Shown here: positions 1 through 17,256 of the stretch, piece after piece | Numbering within the stretch: the first letter of the stretch is position 1 | Layout of the letters: each line of letters starts with the position of its first letter | Source: a virus | Lineage: Duplodnaviria; Heunggongvirae; Uroviricota; Caudoviricetes | Direction: 5' to 3' (one strand) | Virus record (IMG/VR): IMGVR_UViG_3300025122_000007 | Span: 101,620 to 120,396 of that record | Length of the DNA stretch: 18,777 nucleotides | Notes under the pieces: generated by a model | What the model was told of the DNA's origin: nothing | The model's database searches: none | The model's input: only the letters and a program-made list of their open reading frames with translations | Made by a program: the position numbers and the translations under genes

Positions 1-1572
1 GTTGGTGCCTCTGCCATTACAGGGTACGATCGCTTTGGTGTTCGAGGAGCAATTGGTGGGGCAGCCCTTGGTATCGGCCTTGGCTTTGGAATGGAGCTTG
101 GCAAGTTTGACCACGCAGAAGGAAATCTTGGAAAGACTCTTTGGAACGTAGGACTTGAGGGCATAGGAACATCTGCAGGAGCCTCCATGCTTGCATCGTC
201 GATGATGAAAGGGGCATTCTTCAGAGGGAAGCTGGGAAAGTACGGTACAGATGAGCAGCTTGTGGGCATGGCTGAGAGCCTAGGTCTTTCTCCTGAAATA
301 GGAAAGGCAGGTGGCATGTATGGGATGTTGGGGAGATCTTATAGGCAAAAGATTGAAACTGCACTCCCAGGTAAGCTTGGAGAGATTCTGGGAAGAGGAG
401 TGGAGGCTCAAACAGGATCTCCTCACATGTTGGATGCAGTTCTTCAGCATGGTTCCATTCAAGCGATTCCTCCTCAAGAGTTCTTTATTGCGAATGCAAG
501 AGATGTTATGTCTGGTGCTGCTGCGGGCTTTGTGGCATCAAGTCCCATTGCATTCGGTTCGTACCTGTTCTCTGGAAAAGACGATGCTTACAACTCGATC
601 GAAGGTCTTCCTCATAAGGGGATGGCTGGGGCCAGTCGTAGACAAAGAACCGACTTCGGGTCTGGTTATCAAGGAGAAGATCAGGTTGGAGCCTTTGGCG
701 GTATGGTGGGACTCGGAGCCACCCTCTATGCAGGTCGTGGCGCATACAGTGTTCGTGGAAACTTGATGATGGCTCGTGGCCACTGGCGTGGATACATGGA
801 CTTCTTCCATGGTACTCCGATTGCGAACAGAGCGAATATCTTGGCGGAAGGTCTTGTGCCCAATGCCAAGGACTGGGACAAGATCAAGCATCTGACTCCT
901 ACAGACCCTGCTCAGAAGGCTCTGTTCGCTCAAATTAGAGAGAAGGGAGAGAGGGTATTCTTCTCTGGTGAATCTTGGATTGCAAGAGCACATGCAAGTC
1001 AACAGGTAAAGCAGAACATTGGTCCTTTTATGGAAAACATGGGAAAGGCCAAAGGTATGCTGGGTTATTTCCACCCTTCTGTTCATGGAGGAAAAGCAGA
1101 GGGAGCGATATTCAAGTTCCGCCTTCCGATGGAAGAGATCGCTTCTCAGACTGGCCTCTTGGCTCAGTATGAAGCCATTACAGGGAGTGAAGGAGTTTCT
1201 AAGTTTCTCAAGGGATGGGGAGATGCATTTGCTTCTCATACAGGTCCTTCTATTGACCTATCAAGAGCAGGAGGGGTGGCTCCTGAACTCTTTAATGAGG
1301 TAATTCCGACAAGAGGAGGAGAGATTCTCTGGGGAGAGAAGGAGGTCCTAAGGGCTGCAGAAACCACAGGCTTTAAGCCCAATAAGGCAAAGGCTGCTGG
1401 AAGATTTGCTCTTGCAATGGCTCCAATAGTATTGGCAGGCTGGGGAGTGAACAAGATGTGGAATGCGATGCATACAGACGCGACTACAGACATGAAGAAG
1501 AAGATGTCCAGGAAGAATATTCAAGGACATGCTAATATGGATCCAAAGAGGCATATGAATATTTATGGCTAA
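1..1572 (+). CDS. 5'-truncated Gly-rich membrane-associated protein with central ADP-ribosyltransferase-like (KptA/Tpt1/Arr/PARP-like, HGT-motif) domain
   Basis: Frame 1 is open from base 1 (VGASAITGYDRFGVRGAIGGAALGIGLGFG precedes the track's Met at 91). ART-like motifs in order: FFHGT...NILAEGLVP (His codon 808-810), RVFFS...ARAHA, GAIFKFRLP, GGVAPELF (~1270-1293). Several Gly/Ala hydrophobic stretches and a C-terminal hydrophobic helix (1405-1449). Ends TAA. The CDS is secure; the ART call is motif-based. Confidence 0.75.
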   Translation, partial: VGASAITGYDRFGVRGAIGGAALGIGLGFGMELGKFDHAEGNLGKTLWNVGLEGIGTSAGASMLASSMMKGAFFRGKLGKYGTDEQLVGMAESLGLSPEIGKAGGMYGMLGRSYRQKIETALPGKLGEILGRGVEAQTGSPHMLDAVLQHGSIQAIPPQEFFIANARDVMSGAAAGFVASSPIAFGSYLFSGKDDAYNSIEGLPHKGMAGASRRQRTDFGSGYQGEDQVGAFGGMVGLGATLYAGRGAYSVRGNLMMARGHWRGYMDFFHGTPIANRANILAEGLVPNAKDWDKIKHLTPTDPAQKALFAQIREKGERVFFSGESWIARAHASQQVKQNIGPFMENMGKAKGMLGYFHPSVHGGKAEGAIFKFRLPMEEIASQTGLLAQYEAITGSEGVSKFLKGWGDAFASHTGPSIDLSRAGGVAPELFNEVIPTRGGEILWGEKEVLRAAETTGFKPNKAKAAGRFALAMAPIVLAGWGVNKMWNAMHTDATTDMKKKMSRKNIQGHANMDPKRHMNIYG

Positions 1573-1750
1573 AAAAGAAAACATTGGTCCTATCAAGGAC
1601 AGAAGGTATAGAGAGGCTACGGTGAATAGGAGGAGCGCCTTTACGAGGGTATTGTGCGACCCCACATTCGTACCCATCTTCATCAAGAGAACACTGGACA
1701 GCAAACCAGCGGAACATTTATTGGATCCGTTCGGTTTTAGGAATGCATAA
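1565..1750 (+). CDS. Small basic hypothetical protein (61 aa)
   Basis: Fills the gap exactly: 8-nt ATGGCTAA overlap with the upstream stop and TAATG overlap with the downstream start, which indicates translational coupling. Confidence 0.65.
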   Translation: MAKKENIGPIKDRRYREATVNRRSAFTRVLCDPTFVPIFIKRTLDSKPAEHLLDPFGFRNA

Positions 1751-3846: not shown

Positions 3847-5889
3847 ATGGAAGGATTAACTCTTCACCCAGCATGCATCCGTTGTAAGAAGAAGAATACC
3901 CTCGAGAAGGATATTGTTCTGGAAGACGGGACCACGGTGTTCAAAGCCGGAGAGTTCCCCATCCAATGCAAAGGTATCCCTGCTGATTTCGGCCAGGTGG
4001 TAGACAAGGTCCTTGGTGACAAAAGAAGCTTCTTTGATAAGAATGAAGTTGAGATGCTTGAAGAAGGTCTCGACGCTACCAAGTGGGCAAAGAAGTGGTT
4101 GCTCGTTGATAAGGGTGGCTGGGAGCCGAGAGGTTGTACCCCACCCAACAAGCTTAAGTATGACCTTGATGACGATGCTGATATCTACCAAGAGATCATG
4201 CTCAAGTGTACTGCGAAGCGTAAGGTCTTCAGGATTGGACGACGTGGTGGAAAGACAGAGTCCATCTGTGTCAAGATGCTTCATCTCATTGACACCTGGC
4301 CTACGGGTCACTGTAAGATCCTTCTTGTCTGTCCTTTCAGATCACAGATCGATATTATCTACAAAAGACTCAATGAGTTGATCGCAGACTCTCCACGTCT
4401 GAAGAACCTCATCAAGCGCAAGGTCTCCAATCCATATCACGAGATCGAGTTTACCAATGGTTCCTACATCCGTGGCTTCTCAGCAGGCACCAACTCTGGT
4501 GCTAATGCTTCTTCCGTACGTGGACAGGGTGGTGACGTTATCGTTCTTGACGAGACGGACTACATGAACCCTGGAGATATCGACTCCATCGCAGCTATCC
4601 TGATGGACCACGAAGACACTCAGCTATGGGCCTCATCTACACCCACAGGTCGTAGGGACAAGTTCTATGAGTGGAGCTTCGACCCAGAATACAAGAACTT
4701 CCACTTCCCATCGATGGCGAACCCAAACTGGACCCACCGTATGGACCTTGAGTTCCGACGTACCCTTACCAAGGGCGGTTATATTCATGAGGTCCTTGCA
4801 GAGTTCGGAGACGACGATGCCGGAGTCTTCAGAAAGAAGGACATCGACTATGCCCTCAAGTGGGGCGGCAACTATGACTATGATGACAGCTACCATAGTC
4901 AGATCAATGCTCCAGGATGGGCCTATACGATCGGAGTGGACTGGAACCCGGTAAAGGGTACAGAGGTCATGGTCCTTGGTATTCATAGGTACACAAAAGA
5001 AGAGGCAGAGCTCGAAGGTGATTCTGCTCTTGAGGGAGAAGCATTCTTCAGGGTCGTTGACTCAAAGACCGTAGAAAGACAAGAGTTTACTGAAAGAGCG
5101 GCCAACCTGGAGATCATTCGTATGAATAGAAAGTGGGCACCGTTCGCTATCTATCTTGACTACGGTGGTGGTGGTGTCAATCACTTAGAGCAACTTAGAA
5201 TCTTCTCTGCGACAAAGCCCGATGGAACTGCTGACGGTAGAATCAAACACATCACCAAGAGCATCAACTTCTCTGGAAACATCGAAGCTTACGACCCTTG
5301 GTCCAAGAAGAAGACCAAGAAGCGTGCGAAGCAGATGATGATTGAAAATGCTCAGCGAAAGTTTGAGCAGCACAAGATTCAGTTGACGCAAGCAGATCCC
5401 ATTTTGACAAAGCAACTAGAGAACTATATTATCTCTCGTGTGACTCAGACCGGAATTCCGGTTTATGAAATGCAATCAGATGCGGTCGGAGACCACAAGC
5501 TTGATGCACTAGTTCTAGCATTGTTAGCAGTTCAGATGGAAGCGACCCAGTTCGGCAAGCCACGGCATGACGCAAAGATGCGTGTCGCCCCTGGTCTCGG
5601 ACAGGACATAGAGACTTCCGTAATAGAAGAACTTGGCAAGGCTGGAGTCAGCACCAAGCAACAGTTGAAGCTGGAGTTAGCCCCACAGCCTCGTGCTGTC
5701 AACGAAATGATCACACCGCGAACGGTGGTAAGGAGGAGTGACCATACTCATCGGTTCGCAAACGATAGAGATCATGAAAAGGACTGGGACAGAAGATTAT
5801 TAGCGCAACGCAAATCCAAGGTCAATAGAGGCAAGGGGTTTGGCAGGTTAAGAAATTCTCGAGGTCCACCAAGAAGATCGAACTTTTAA
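3847..5889 (+). CDS. terL: Terminase large subunit (ATPase plus RNase H-like nuclease)
   Basis: Walker A RIGRRGGKT, Walker B VIVLDE, motif III SSTPTG, nuclease aspartates in IGVDWN, IYLDYG and DHKLDA. Upstream of portal and capsid genes. Confidence 0.97.
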   Translation: MEGLTLHPACIRCKKKNTLEKDIVLEDGTTVFKAGEFPIQCKGIPADFGQVVDKVLGDKRSFFDKNEVEMLEEGLDATKWAKKWLLVDKGGWEPRGCTPPNKLKYDLDDDADIYQEIMLKCTAKRKVFRIGRRGGKTESICVKMLHLIDTWPTGHCKILLVCPFRSQIDIIYKRLNELIADSPRLKNLIKRKVSNPYHEIEFTNGSYIRGFSAGTNSGANASSVRGQGGDVIVLDETDYMNPGDIDSIAAILMDHEDTQLWASSTPTGRRDKFYEWSFDPEYKNFHFPSMANPNWTHRMDLEFRRTLTKGGYIHEVLAEFGDDDAGVFRKKDIDYALKWGGNYDYDDSYHSQINAPGWAYTIGVDWNPVKGTEVMVLGIHRYTKEEAELEGDSALEGEAFFRVVDSKTVERQEFTERAANLEIIRMNRKWAPFAIYLDYGGGGVNHLEQLRIFSATKPDGTADGRIKHITKSINFSGNIEAYDPWSKKKTKKRAKQMMIENAQRKFEQHKIQLTQADPILTKQLENYIISRVTQTGIPVYEMQSDAVGDHKLDALVLALLAVQMEATQFGKPRHDAKMRVAPGLGQDIETSVIEELGKAGVSTKQQLKLELAPQPRAVNEMITPRTVVRRSDHTHRFANDRDHEKDWDRRLLAQRKSKVNRGKGFGRLRNSRGPPRRSNF

Positions 5890-5957
5890 AGTTCCCTCGG
5901 CATCCTCTCTGCAGGTTTTCCTCCTCCTCCTTTTCCTGTGGAGAGGGTGCCACTTTA
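5887..5957 (+). promoter_or_regulatory. Long RNA hairpin with tandem anti-SD loop
   Basis: Arms 5899-5915 (GGCATCCTCTCTGCAGG) and 5935-5951 (CCTGTGGAGAGGGTGCC) give 14 Watson-Crick plus 3 G-U pairs with no mismatch. Loop TTTTCCTCCTCCTCCTTTT (5916-5934). Outer stem TAAAGT (5887-5892) pairs with ACTTTA (5952-5957). The structure is clear; its function is unknown. Confidence 0.75.
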
Positions 5958-5971
5958 TTCTTAGGAGAATC

Positions 5972-6454
5972 ATGGCCTTAAAGCTATACGAATACAATGA
6001 GGACACCAATCAGTTTGATGAGATTACAGCGATCAATCCGATCTCAAGCTCACACAACGGTGTTGACGGAGAGACTGTAACTCAAAAGCTCTTCATCAGA
6101 AACGACGACCTAACCAAATGGTATTCTGGAATTACCATCCTACCTACATCTACGCCTGACGACCTGGTCAGTGCGGGTAACGTGGCGGGATGGGAGGTGA
6201 AGTTGCTCGGTGGAGACACTGCGCCCACAGAGGGACAGTGGACGAATCGAGTTTCTGGAACGGTCCTGCCAAGCACAGCGAACATGGCGACAGCCTCTCC
6301 TCGCATTCACTTCCTTCCACAAATAGGAACAGCGGTTGCACCAGATGATAACTACTATCCATTCTGGCTCCGCATCGTAGTTCCAGTAAATACAAGAAAT
6401 AGAACAGAAAACGGAATCAGTCTTACGGTTGATGAAACGGAGAACGCAATCTAA
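5972..6454 (+). CDS. Hypothetical beta-rich protein (160 aa), probably a virion structural protein
   Basis: AGGAG SD at 5963-5967. Thr/Pro/Asn-rich beta-strand pattern. Located in the head module. Confidence 0.8.
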   Translation: MALKLYEYNEDTNQFDEITAINPISSSHNGVDGETVTQKLFIRNDDLTKWYSGITILPTSTPDDLVSAGNVAGWEVKLLGGDTAPTEGQWTNRVSGTVLPSTANMATASPRIHFLPQIGTAVAPDDNYYPFWLRIVVPVNTRNRTENGISLTVDETENAI

Positions 6455-6567
6455 TGGTGAGCTACTCTGTCGTGGTAACCATAAACTCCGCTCTCTCTGC
6501 TGCCATCAAGCAGTTGAAGAGAAAAGATCTCAGAATCTTAAGGAGCAAAGGTCTGAGGAGTAAGTAA
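6454..6567 (+). CDS. Small basic protein (37 aa, MVSYSVVVTINSALSAAIKQLKRKDLRILRSKGLRSK), absent from the ORF track
   Basis: TAATG overlaps at both ends (6452-6456 and 6565-6569). Its N-terminus resembles that of the next gene. Confidence 0.65.
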   Translation: MVSYSVVVTINSALSAAIKQLKRKDLRILRSKGLRSK

Positions 6568-6992
6568 TGATTAACTATGCTGTTCAGGTAACCATCCAAG
6601 GAGACTCCTCTCAGGAAGACCTGTCTTCCGGAGACAAGAAGGTCTTGCACTCTCGTCCGTCTTTTAATGGAGACAGGCCCATCGTTCCGCTGGATACTCT
6701 TGCCAGCCATGAGAAACCAGCCCAGCCACTCGGTACAACACCCACAGTAAGAGAGATACTTGAAGGCTATCGTGAAGTCGATCGAAGAAGCCAGGAGGCG
6801 CTTGATCTTCTGGAGAGAAGAAGCCAGGGTCTCATCATGCCCATTGACCCCGCTACGCAACCAGACTTGTTCAAGACAGTCAACAACCTCTTCGAGTCAA
6901 AGGAACCTATAGTAGAGGTGACCTATTCAATGTATAGAAAGATCGTAGAGTATGCTAAAGACCTGGGTCTTCTATTAGGAGCAGAGGCCTAA
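6567..6992 (+). CDS. Hypothetical protein (141 aa)
   Basis: GAGGAG upstream, TAATG coupling at both ends, ends TAA. Confidence 0.8.
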   Translation: MINYAVQVTIQGDSSQEDLSSGDKKVLHSRPSFNGDRPIVPLDTLASHEKPAQPLGTTPTVREILEGYREVDRRSQEALDLLERRSQGLIMPIDPATQPDLFKTVNNLFESKEPIVEVTYSMYRKIVEYAKDLGLLLGAEA

Positions 6993-16405: not shown

Positions 16406-16900
16406 ATGGCAGATATTACTACCAAGGTTGCTGGTGCAGCGTTTGATCTCGCTGGAACAGACACTGGAGAAGCAGCACAATTAGACATTCTTGATGCGGC
16501 AGCATCGATGGTTGCAGCACAGGTGGAAGCAGCTCTTGCTGAGCTTTCCACTCCTGTTACACTCAGTGCAGCTGCAGAGGGTGGCGATGCTATAGTCGTG
16601 ACTCTGGCAGGCCCTGCTCACGCAGCACAGTACTTTGCACAGGTTTACGATGCAGCTGGTCTCGAAGCTCTCGTTGGCGTATGGACTATCACAATCGGTG
16701 GTGGCGCGTCAGCAGTCTCGACAAACGTAAAGCCTGGCGTCGTATTCACCTCAAGCGCAGGTGGAGCAGCCACGCTGACTGTCACAGACGTTGCAACAGG
16801 AACAGGAGCGACTGTTTATCTCGAAGTAAGACCGGCAAGCGTACAGGCCGGATCAAAAGCAGGACCAGCAGCGCTGATCCCACTTACCTTCGCGGTATAA
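16406..16900 (+). CDS. Ala/Gly/Thr-rich putative virion surface protein (164 aa)
   Basis: AGGAG SD. Helical N-terminus followed by beta-rich Ig-like strands (ATLTVTDV, TVYLEV). Confidence 0.8.
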   Translation: MADITTKVAGAAFDLAGTDTGEAAQLDILDAAASMVAAQVEAALAELSTPVTLSAAAEGGDAIVVTLAGPAHAAQYFAQVYDAAGLEALVGVWTITIGGGASAVSTNVKPGVVFTSSAGGAATLTVTDVATGTGATVYLEVRPASVQAGSKAGPAALIPLTFAV

Positions 16901-16940: not shown

Positions 16941-16956
16941 CTCGGAGGAGGAGAGA

Positions 16957-17256
16957 ATGGGTACAATTGTCACTAGAGTAGTTGGTGGTGTCTCTATTAG
17001 AGCCGGCTCTGACGTTATCCTGGATTCAGGAGAAGACGTTGGATCCGTATCTAGAGGCTTCCTTGCTCTAACTGAAAATTTACAAGTATCAGATTCAGTC
17101 ACAGTAGACACAGTGCAGTTCTTGGGGGGTGGCTCTAGCCCCTATAGACAATCAGTTCCTGATAGCTGCAACAGCATTGGGAACCGTAGCGAACTTAGCT
17201 GCAGCCATAACCTCGGCGTCTTTCTCGATGGCATTGTAATTGACCTAAGAGATTAG
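16957..17256 (+). CDS. Small structural-type protein with an apparent +1 frameshift at G6 (17124-17129); zero-frame ORF ends at 17256 (TAG), shifted product ends at 17239 (TAA)
   Basis: SD GGAGGAGGAG at 16944-16953 favours ATG 16957 over the track start 16930. After the G run the +1 frame reads VALAPIDNQFLIAATALGTVANLAAAITSASFSMAL, which continues the motif DSVTVDTVQFLG. Confidence 0.65.
   Translation: MGTIVTRVVGGVSIRAGSDVILDSGEDVGSVSRGFLALTENLQVSDSVTVDTVQFLGGGSSPYRQSVPDSCNSIGNRSELSCSHNLGVFLDGIVIDLRD

What the first reader, a model, noticed from the sequence alone, without database searches (positions are those of the whole stretch)
5887..5971. Mismatch-free 17-bp RNA hairpin displaying a tandem anti-SD loop (UUUUCCUCCUCCUCCUUUU) just upstream of an SD
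Seen: the only long intergenic gap in the first 13 kb folds into a 17-bp stem. All 3 non-Watson-Crick pairs are G-U on the + strand (they would be A-C mismatches on the - strand), which argues for selection on the + strand RNA. The symmetric 19-nt loop mimics the 16S rRNA 3' tail several times over. A 6-bp outer stem includes the terL stop, with a UCCCUC bulge. The next gene's AGGAG lies 11 nt after the inner stem (5963-5967), so loop-SD pseudoknot pairing looks feasible. The loop is also perfectly complementary over 10 nt to the SD GGAGGAGGAG at 16944-16953. Inference: either a cis translational switch coupling terL termination to downstream expression, or a processed small RNA acting as an SD-sequestering 16S mimic in trans on phage or host mRNAs. 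This is not a standard terminator architecture.
Basis: partly seen in the sequence, partly recalled or inferred. Interest (0 to 1): 0.78.

Follow-up and report, generated by a model that had tools for sequence, protein, structure and literature searches.

The report
Conserved phage anti-Shine-Dalgarno RNA hairpin
Seven related uncultured phages keep an RNA hairpin right after their DNA-packaging gene whose stem changes freely while its loop always mimics the ribosome's mRNA-binding tail, and a conserved promoter hidden inside that gene suggests the phage makes a small RNA that blocks ribosome-binding sites, as known bacterial RNAs do.

Summary
The hairpin is real (17 bp, three G-U pairs, + strand z about -4) and under selection. 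All 7 clade members with DNA for this gap have a 14-20-bp stem after terL (five have full terL, 53-68% identical to this one). Arms are about 49% alike; the loop core CCUCCUCCU is invariant. Two of the seven were found after the motif was defined. About 25 distant relatives lack it. New: a sigma-70 promoter inside terL (5404-5432) is the best match in the 120-kb contig and is kept through minority codons in 5/5. A C-rich strand between the stop and the stem can also pair with the next gene's SD (weak support). Not supported: the outer stem through the terL stop (pair probability 0.003), a conserved target at 16944 (gene absent in the two relatives checked) and a conserved loop-SD pseudoknot. 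Best reading (0.45): an anti-SD RNA module working like cuckoo/CcsR/NfeR1 or RepG, but not a cuckoo member. Expression, RNA ends, host and targets are untested. The scan noted the same hairpin in another assembly, and similar anti-SD hairpins in bacteria.

The parts
3847..5889 (+). terL, terminase large subunit; its stop lies 9 nt before the stem
   Evidence: PHROG 2, E 3e-25
5404..5432 (+). sigma-70-type promoter inside terL (TTGACA, 17 nt, TATTAT); start site inferred near 5438-5440
   Evidence: Best match in the 120-kb contig; the only + strand match of 10/12 or better in each of four relatives' late regions. Minority codons TTG and TAT invariant in 5/5; the -35 hexamer is absent in 4 hairpin-less relatives
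5439..5889 (+). inferred leader of the promoter-driven transcript; no conserved SD-led ORF and no conserved structure
5730..5738 (+). AAGGAGGAG inside terL, a 9-nt perfect complement of the loop; possible long-range partner, weak evidence
   Evidence: Synonymous shuffles p 0.003 here and under 0.003 in P3; not significant in three other relatives
5891..5898 (+). C-rich 5' flank, can pair with the downstream SD as a basal helix
   Evidence: C-rich in 7/7; cognate flank-tail pairing better than swapped, permutation p 0.045; pairing probability 0.07-0.8
5899..5915 (+). 5' arm of the 17-bp stem
5916..5934 (+). 19-nt pyrimidine loop; invariant core CCUCCUCCU at 5920-5928
   Evidence: Invariant in 7/7; unpaired probability 0.92-1.0 in five leader folds
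5935..5951 (+). 3' arm of the stem
5952..5962 (+). U-rich tail, 5 U in the first 8 nt; possible weak terminator tract
   Evidence: U in first 8 nt across the seven: 5, 4, 8, 6, 1, 6, 5
5963..5967 (+). Shine-Dalgarno AGGAG of the next gene
5972..6454 (+). 160-aa gene of unknown function, first gene after the hairpin; starts a few bases after the terL stop in most distant relatives
   Evidence: No PHROG or Pfam match

Best explanation
The hairpin is the working end of a phage RNA that pairs with Shine-Dalgarno sequences in trans. A host-type sigma-70 promoter inside terL starts a transcript about 450 nt before the terL stop (promoter conservation shown; activity inferred). That stretch has no conserved start site, so it is probably free of ribosomes. 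The long stem folds and, with its U-rich tail, ends the transcript or protects its 3' end, giving an RNA of about 520 nt or a processed 3' piece of it (inferred). The stem holds CCUCCUCCU unpaired (predicted in all folds), and this loop seeds on GGAGG-type ribosome-binding sites of host or phage mRNAs and lowers their translation, as the same motif does in NfeR1 and CcsR (inferred by analogy). On long late transcripts where terL is translated, the ribosome stopping a few bases before the stem would weaken termination and open the flank-SD helix, letting the head genes be read (inferred; in E. coli terminators close to a stop codon are repressed, PMC4824070).
For: Loop core invariant in 7/7 while arms average 49% identity. 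11 of 15 model pairs change on both sides; covariation score above 500/500 shuffles and all slid controls (the structure came from this same alignment, so this leans in its favour). Two members found after the motif was defined both carry it. 15 G-U versus 0 A-C. Promoter conserved and unique. No SD-led ORF in the leader. U-rich tail in 6/7. The loop does not track the adjacent SD, and is unchanged where a homing endonuclease gene was inserted behind the hairpin. Variable stems with a fixed CCUCCUCC loop are the signature of cuckoo RNAs (PMC4615179), whose loops pair with ribosome-binding sites (10.1101/2025.11.14.688489). A C/U-rich terminator loop alone is enough for RepG activity (PMC8295292).
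Against: No evidence of expression or of RNA ends. The tail is weak in the window (5/8 U) and missing in one relative (1/8), and a 13-19-nt loop is long for a terminator. The phage's own genes use AGGAG/GGAG sites (53 of 134 have GGAG), so a strong anti-SD RNA could hurt the phage. No conserved target was found and the host is unknown. Promoter and hairpin share one clade, so their co-occurrence is not independent evidence. Look-alike hairpins in unrelated phages often sit directly before an SD, which fits a cis role as well.
Confidence: 0.45

Rival explanations
1. Cis control element of the head operon. The promoter inside terL transcribes the head genes. The hairpin loops out the gap so that the terL stop and the next SD stay close, the C-rich flank covers the SD until a ribosome terminates, and the loop acts on the same mRNA, either on the adjacent SD or on the AGGAGGAG inside terL.
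For: In most of about 25 distant relatives terL and the next gene are only a few bases apart, so coupling is ancestral. Flank-SD pairing in 6/6 with the native next gene, p 0.045. A 7-9-nt loop complement lies in the terL 3' end in 6/6 examined; 2 of 24 hairpin-less relatives reach that energy. In L097 a CCCCU loop faces an AGGGG SD. Unrelated phages have similar hairpins just before an SD.
Against: Coupling needs no fixed loop. The loop-SD helix is only 6-7 kcal/mol and the linker is 3 nt in one member. Covering the flank raises SD accessibility clearly only in P3 and L160. The internal complement sits at different places and is explained by Glu-Glu codons in three of five; hairpin-less relatives are lower in G+C.
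Confidence: 0.3
2. The loop is a protein-binding site: a mimic of the 16S rRNA 3' tail that binds or decoys a factor recognising that tail (a ribosomal protein, a maturation factor, or a nuclease of a defence system), or a site for a phage protein.
For: Four of seven loops contain CCUCCUUU, as in many 16S tails (16S tail from general knowledge). The loop is invariant whatever the neighbouring SD.
Against: No candidate protein was identified. The CCU repeat is longer than the 16S tail needs and lacks its ACCUCC context. It matches known base-pairing sRNA seeds better.
Confidence: 0.13
3. An ordinary terminator, RNase III site or stabilising hairpin; the loop is pyrimidine-rich only to avoid pairing and has no sequence-specific role.
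For: Position after a stop, U-rich tail, stems of 14-20 bp. An unrelated phage with a T7-type polymerase has two similar hairpins, one after the capsid gene and one in the early region, positions where T7 has a terminator and RNase III sites (general knowledge).
Against: A fixed 9-mer would occur in a 16-nt all-pyrimidine loop about 1.6% of the time, yet it is kept in 7/7 while stems diverge and silent sites are saturated (0 of 13 Pro, 0 of 16 Ala and 0 of 20 Arg invariant columns keep their codon).
Confidence: 0.12

Closest known systems
Cuckoo RNAs: CcsR1-4, NfeR1/alpha-r14 (Rfam RF02344); PMC4615179, PMC8034643, 10.1101/2025.11.14.688489
   Same: Anti-SD motif CCUCCUCC in a hairpin loop over stems that vary by compensatory change; CcsR RNAs come from the 3' UTR of a gene.
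   Different: One long hairpin instead of 2-4 adjacent ones; core CCUCCUCCU, with the full CCUCCUCCC in only 2 of 7 (running into the stem); phage terL locus instead of alphaproteobacterial DUF1127 loci; no Rfam hit.
RepG of Helicobacter pylori (PMC8295292)
   Same: A long C/U-rich loop on a terminal stem-loop that is enough for base-pairing regulation.
   Different: RepG has its own intergenic gene and a known G-repeat target. Here the promoter is inside a coding gene, termination is unproven and targets are unknown.
C-rich-loop sRNAs of Gram-positive bacteria (RNAIII as described in PMC4615179; 6C sRNA, PMC6486639, title and abstract only)
   Same: Unpaired C-rich loops seed on G-rich target sites.
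   Different: Multi-hairpin chromosomal RNAs with UCCC or C-run loops; no sequence relation shown.
Terminators repressed by a nearby stop codon (PMC4824070)
   Same: The stem starts 4-22 nt after the terL stop, within the range where lambda tR2 was repressed in E. coli.
   Different: Long loop and weak U tract here; whether the host couples transcription and translation is unknown.
Nearest cultured phages: Moorella phage MTATph1, Bacillus phage 0305phi8-36, Acinetobacter phage ME3
   Same: Terminase and capsid proteins of the same broad kind, about 25-33% identical.
   Different: Too distant to give a host; MTATph1 has no such loop motif after terL.

Membership tests
Cuckoo RNA (alpha-r14/CcsR) | CCUCCUCCC motif in the hairpin loop | tested here: inconclusive
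   CCUCCUCC in 7/7; ninth base U in the invariant core; CCUCCUCCC only in P4 and P5, running into the stem
Cuckoo RNA (alpha-r14/CcsR) | 2-4 adjacent hairpins, each with the motif | tested here: not met
   One hairpin per locus; single copy in the 120-kb contig, which is 56% complete
Cuckoo RNA (alpha-r14/CcsR) | Stems vary by compensatory change | tested here: met
Cuckoo RNA (alpha-r14/CcsR) | Match to an Rfam cuckoo model | tested here: not met
   No hit at E up to 5. The RF02344 genome search was blank but so were its controls
Cuckoo RNA (alpha-r14/CcsR) | Alphaproteobacterial locus, mostly beside a DUF1127 gene | tested here: not met
   Flanked by phage terL and an unknown gene with no Pfam match; host unknown
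Anti-SD trans-acting sRNA (functional class) | Exposed anti-SD seed conserved above background | tested here: met
Anti-SD trans-acting sRNA (functional class) | Own promoter or processing from a UTR | tested here: inconclusive
   Conserved sigma-70 site 450 nt upstream; activity and RNA ends not shown
Anti-SD trans-acting sRNA (functional class) | Discrete, stable RNA that represses targets through the loop | not testable with these tools
   Needs RNA reads or bench work
Intrinsic terminator | G+C-rich stem followed at once by a U tract | tested here: inconclusive
   U in first 8 nt: 5, 4, 8, 6, 1, 6, 5
Intrinsic terminator | Short loop of 3-8 nt | tested here: not met
   Loops of 13-19 nt; not called by the terminator scan
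CsrA/RsmA site on the opposite strand | GGA loop on a stem that folds on the - strand | tested here: not met
   15 G-U pairs on + become A-C on -; - strand z -0.5 in the window
H-type pseudoknot switch (loop with adjacent SD) | Linker able to span the stem, and loop-SD covariation | tested here: not met
   Linkers 3-12 nt for 14-20 bp; the loop stays fixed while SDs vary among AGGAG, GGAG and GAGGU. No pseudoknot folding program was available

The most novel reading that the evidence does not exclude
A phage hides a host-polymerase promoter in its terminase gene to make, early in infection, an RNA whose loop mimics the 16S rRNA tail and dampens SD-led translation, while the same hairpin gates the head operon so that it opens only when terL itself is translated: one element acting as both trans repressor and cis timer, with the same design recurring in unrelated phages.
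Probability: 0.2. Interest if true: 0.85.

Novelty: new variant of a known kind. Interest (0 to 1): 0.62.

Why it matters
Anti-SD small RNAs are well studied in bacteria, where NfeR1 reaches about 7% of genes (10.1101/2025.11.14.688489). My searches of the held literature found no phage-encoded example; they cover open-access papers only. A conserved one in the packaging operon of large phages would be an RNA route to host takeover or to timing of late genes. The element is under 90 nt and its loop is easy to mutate, so the question can be tested directly in laboratory strains.

Tried and rejected
Rfam scan: nothing on the element. No RNA holder was listed; this is no evidence either way, and no reads were laid. 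The exact 19-nt loop in viral contigs gave 17 hits, none in a long hairpin. A loop-SD-start pattern gave 47 hits, none of this design. terL relatives in genome contigs: none. Sigma-factor domains PF04542 and PF04545: none in this 56% complete contig. Rejected: the outer stem through the stop; the 16944 site as a conserved target; a structured 500-nt leader (mean z about -1 against codon shuffles, RNAalifold pairs mostly broken); a conserved leader ORF; a - strand CsrA-type site. A shared target among phage start regions was not found; the best matches here are the 16957 gene and two - strand genes with phosphoheptose-isomerase-like and dehydrogenase-like hits. Host not identified.

Full report
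Setting. The window is the last 18.8 kb of a 120-kb phage contig, 56% complete. It holds an HNH gene, terL (3847-5889), a portal gene and a major capsid gene. The nearest cultured phages are only 25-33% identical in terminase and capsid, so the host is unknown.

Observation. The + strand folds far better than shuffles (z -3.79) and the - strand does not (z -0.52). The gap is the longest in the window. The outer stem through the stop can be drawn but has pair probability 0.003 in context. Rfam has no match.

Conservation. Four terL relatives at 53-68% identity were fetched with their DNA. All have a 75-88-nt gap with a long hairpin whose loop carries CCUCCUCCU. Two more clade members, found later through the downstream protein, also carry it, which serves as an out-of-sample test. 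Across the seven, stems are 14-20 bp with 15 G-U pairs and no A-C mismatch, arms average 49% identity, and loops are 13-19 nt. Eleven of 15 model pairs change on both sides; that structure was derived from the same alignment, so the per-sequence folds are the firmer evidence. Silent sites in terL are saturated among the five full genes, so an invariant 9-mer is not simple inheritance. About 25 more distant relatives lack the element; in most, the next gene starts a few bases after the terL stop. One of them, L097, has a different, shorter hairpin with a CCCCU loop. A covariance model finds a single copy in this contig.

A promoter inside terL. TTGACA-17-TATTAT at 5404-5432 is the best sigma-70 match on either strand of the contig. 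The equivalent site is the only + strand match of 10/12 or better in each of four relatives' late regions. Of 16 invariant Leu columns only this one keeps its codon, the minority TTG (12% use); the Tyr codon TAT (40% use) is kept too; four hairpin-less relatives lack the -35 hexamer. The leader that follows has no conserved SD-led ORF and no conserved fold. Promoter activity is inferred, not shown.

Cis features. The 8 nt between stop and stem are C-rich in all seven and can pair with the next SD; cognate pairs beat swapped pairs only modestly (p 0.045), and pairing probabilities run from 0.07 to 0.8. The pairing is lost in the phage where a homing endonuclease gene was inserted after the hairpin. 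The loop itself can form only a 6-7 kcal/mol helix with the adjacent SD, the linker is as short as 3 nt, and the loop does not change when the SD does. I infer that a pseudoknot is not the conserved function; no pseudoknot folder was available. A 7-9-nt complement of the loop lies in the terL 3' end of all six members examined (5730-5738 here). It is significant against codon shuffles in two and explained by Glu-Glu codons in the others, so it is a lead only. The 16944 site is the best match among this contig's start regions, but its gene is missing from the two relatives that cover the region.

Elsewhere. Unrelated phages hold hairpins of the same design: between ssb and a helicase gene in a complete 58.9-kb genome (43.7 bits), and twice in a phage with a T7-type RNA polymerase. 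Most of these came from patterns that contained the loop, and some from patterns that required a downstream SD, so they show recurrence but not frequency.

Mechanism. Shown: structure, strand, loop invariance, promoter conservation. Inferred: transcription from the internal promoter, a 3' end at the hairpin, base pairing in trans, and relief of termination when terL is translated (PMC4824070 shows such relief for tR2 in E. coli). I put 0.45 on an anti-SD RNA acting in trans, 0.30 on a purely cis control element, 0.13 on a protein-binding 16S mimic and 0.12 on an ordinary terminator or processing site. The first two do not exclude each other.

Comparison. It is built like a cuckoo module, with a fixed anti-SD loop on a variable stem (PMC4615179, PMC8034643, 10.1101/2025.11.14.688489), and like the RepG terminator loop (PMC8295292). 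It fails cuckoo membership on hairpin number, Rfam match and locus. A review of phage sRNAs (PMC12197685) and a survey of viral structured RNAs (PMC10690425) showed no such element on the terms I searched; I did not check the survey's supplementary candidate list.

Verdict. A real, conserved phage RNA element with no Rfam match; a new variant of a known kind; interest 0.62.

Noticed in passing
window 6454-6567 and 6567-6992: A 37-aa ORF whose N-terminus resembles that of the next gene (repeat D11). A small ORF sits here in all five relatives, and in L027 the two N-termini share their first 13 residues.
   Followed up: partly
window 5860-5866: Gly673 codon GGT is the only invariant codon among 33 invariant Gly columns. 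It forms a GAGGU/GGGGU run about 25 nt before the stop in four of five phages, which could compete for the C-rich flank.
   Followed up: partly
window 5536-5889: terL ends in a roughly 110-aa basic extension beyond the nuclease motif, kept in length but not in sequence among relatives.
   Followed up: no
L097 2438-2500: A distant relative has a 10-bp hairpin with loop UCCCCUUUU, a U6 tail and the SD AGGGG after terL; loop and SD are complementary.
   Followed up: partly
L138 908-996 (-), L144 1746-1833 (+): An unrelated 58.9-kb phage has a 19-bp hairpin with the same loop, a U6 tail and a strong SD between ssb and a helicase gene.
   Followed up: partly
L399 about 1500-1585 (-) and L400 about 1500-1580 (-): A phage with a T7-type RNA polymerase has two long hairpins with anti-SD-like loops, each directly before an AAGGAG SD; one follows the capsid gene.
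   Followed up: partly
L276 3777-3880 (-): Two adjacent hairpins with CUCCUCCC and CCUCCUCC loops in a viral contig; looks like a two-hairpin cuckoo RNA.
   Followed up: no
L323 2931-2999 (-); L393 3778-3810 (-): Short bacterial hairpins with the same loop, a U tract and an SD; the Simkaniaceae one precedes an ORF that reads like rpoD.
   Followed up: no
L148 2330-2410 (-): A 28-bp hairpin with a CCUCC-rich loop about 370 nt upstream of a terminase-like gene pair in an unrelated phage.
   Followed up: no
L003 2361-3008 and 5108-5656: Endonuclease-like genes flank terL on both sides in one relative; the downstream one matches GIY-YIG homing endonucleases.
   Followed up: partly
window 16857-16885 (-): Weak Rfam toga_FSE match (29.4 bits, below the cut-off of 40) on a 13-bp hairpin; probably chance.
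   Followed up: no
window 16957-17256: A 99-aa gene with a very strong SD and no PHROG match, absent from two relatives.
   Followed up: partly
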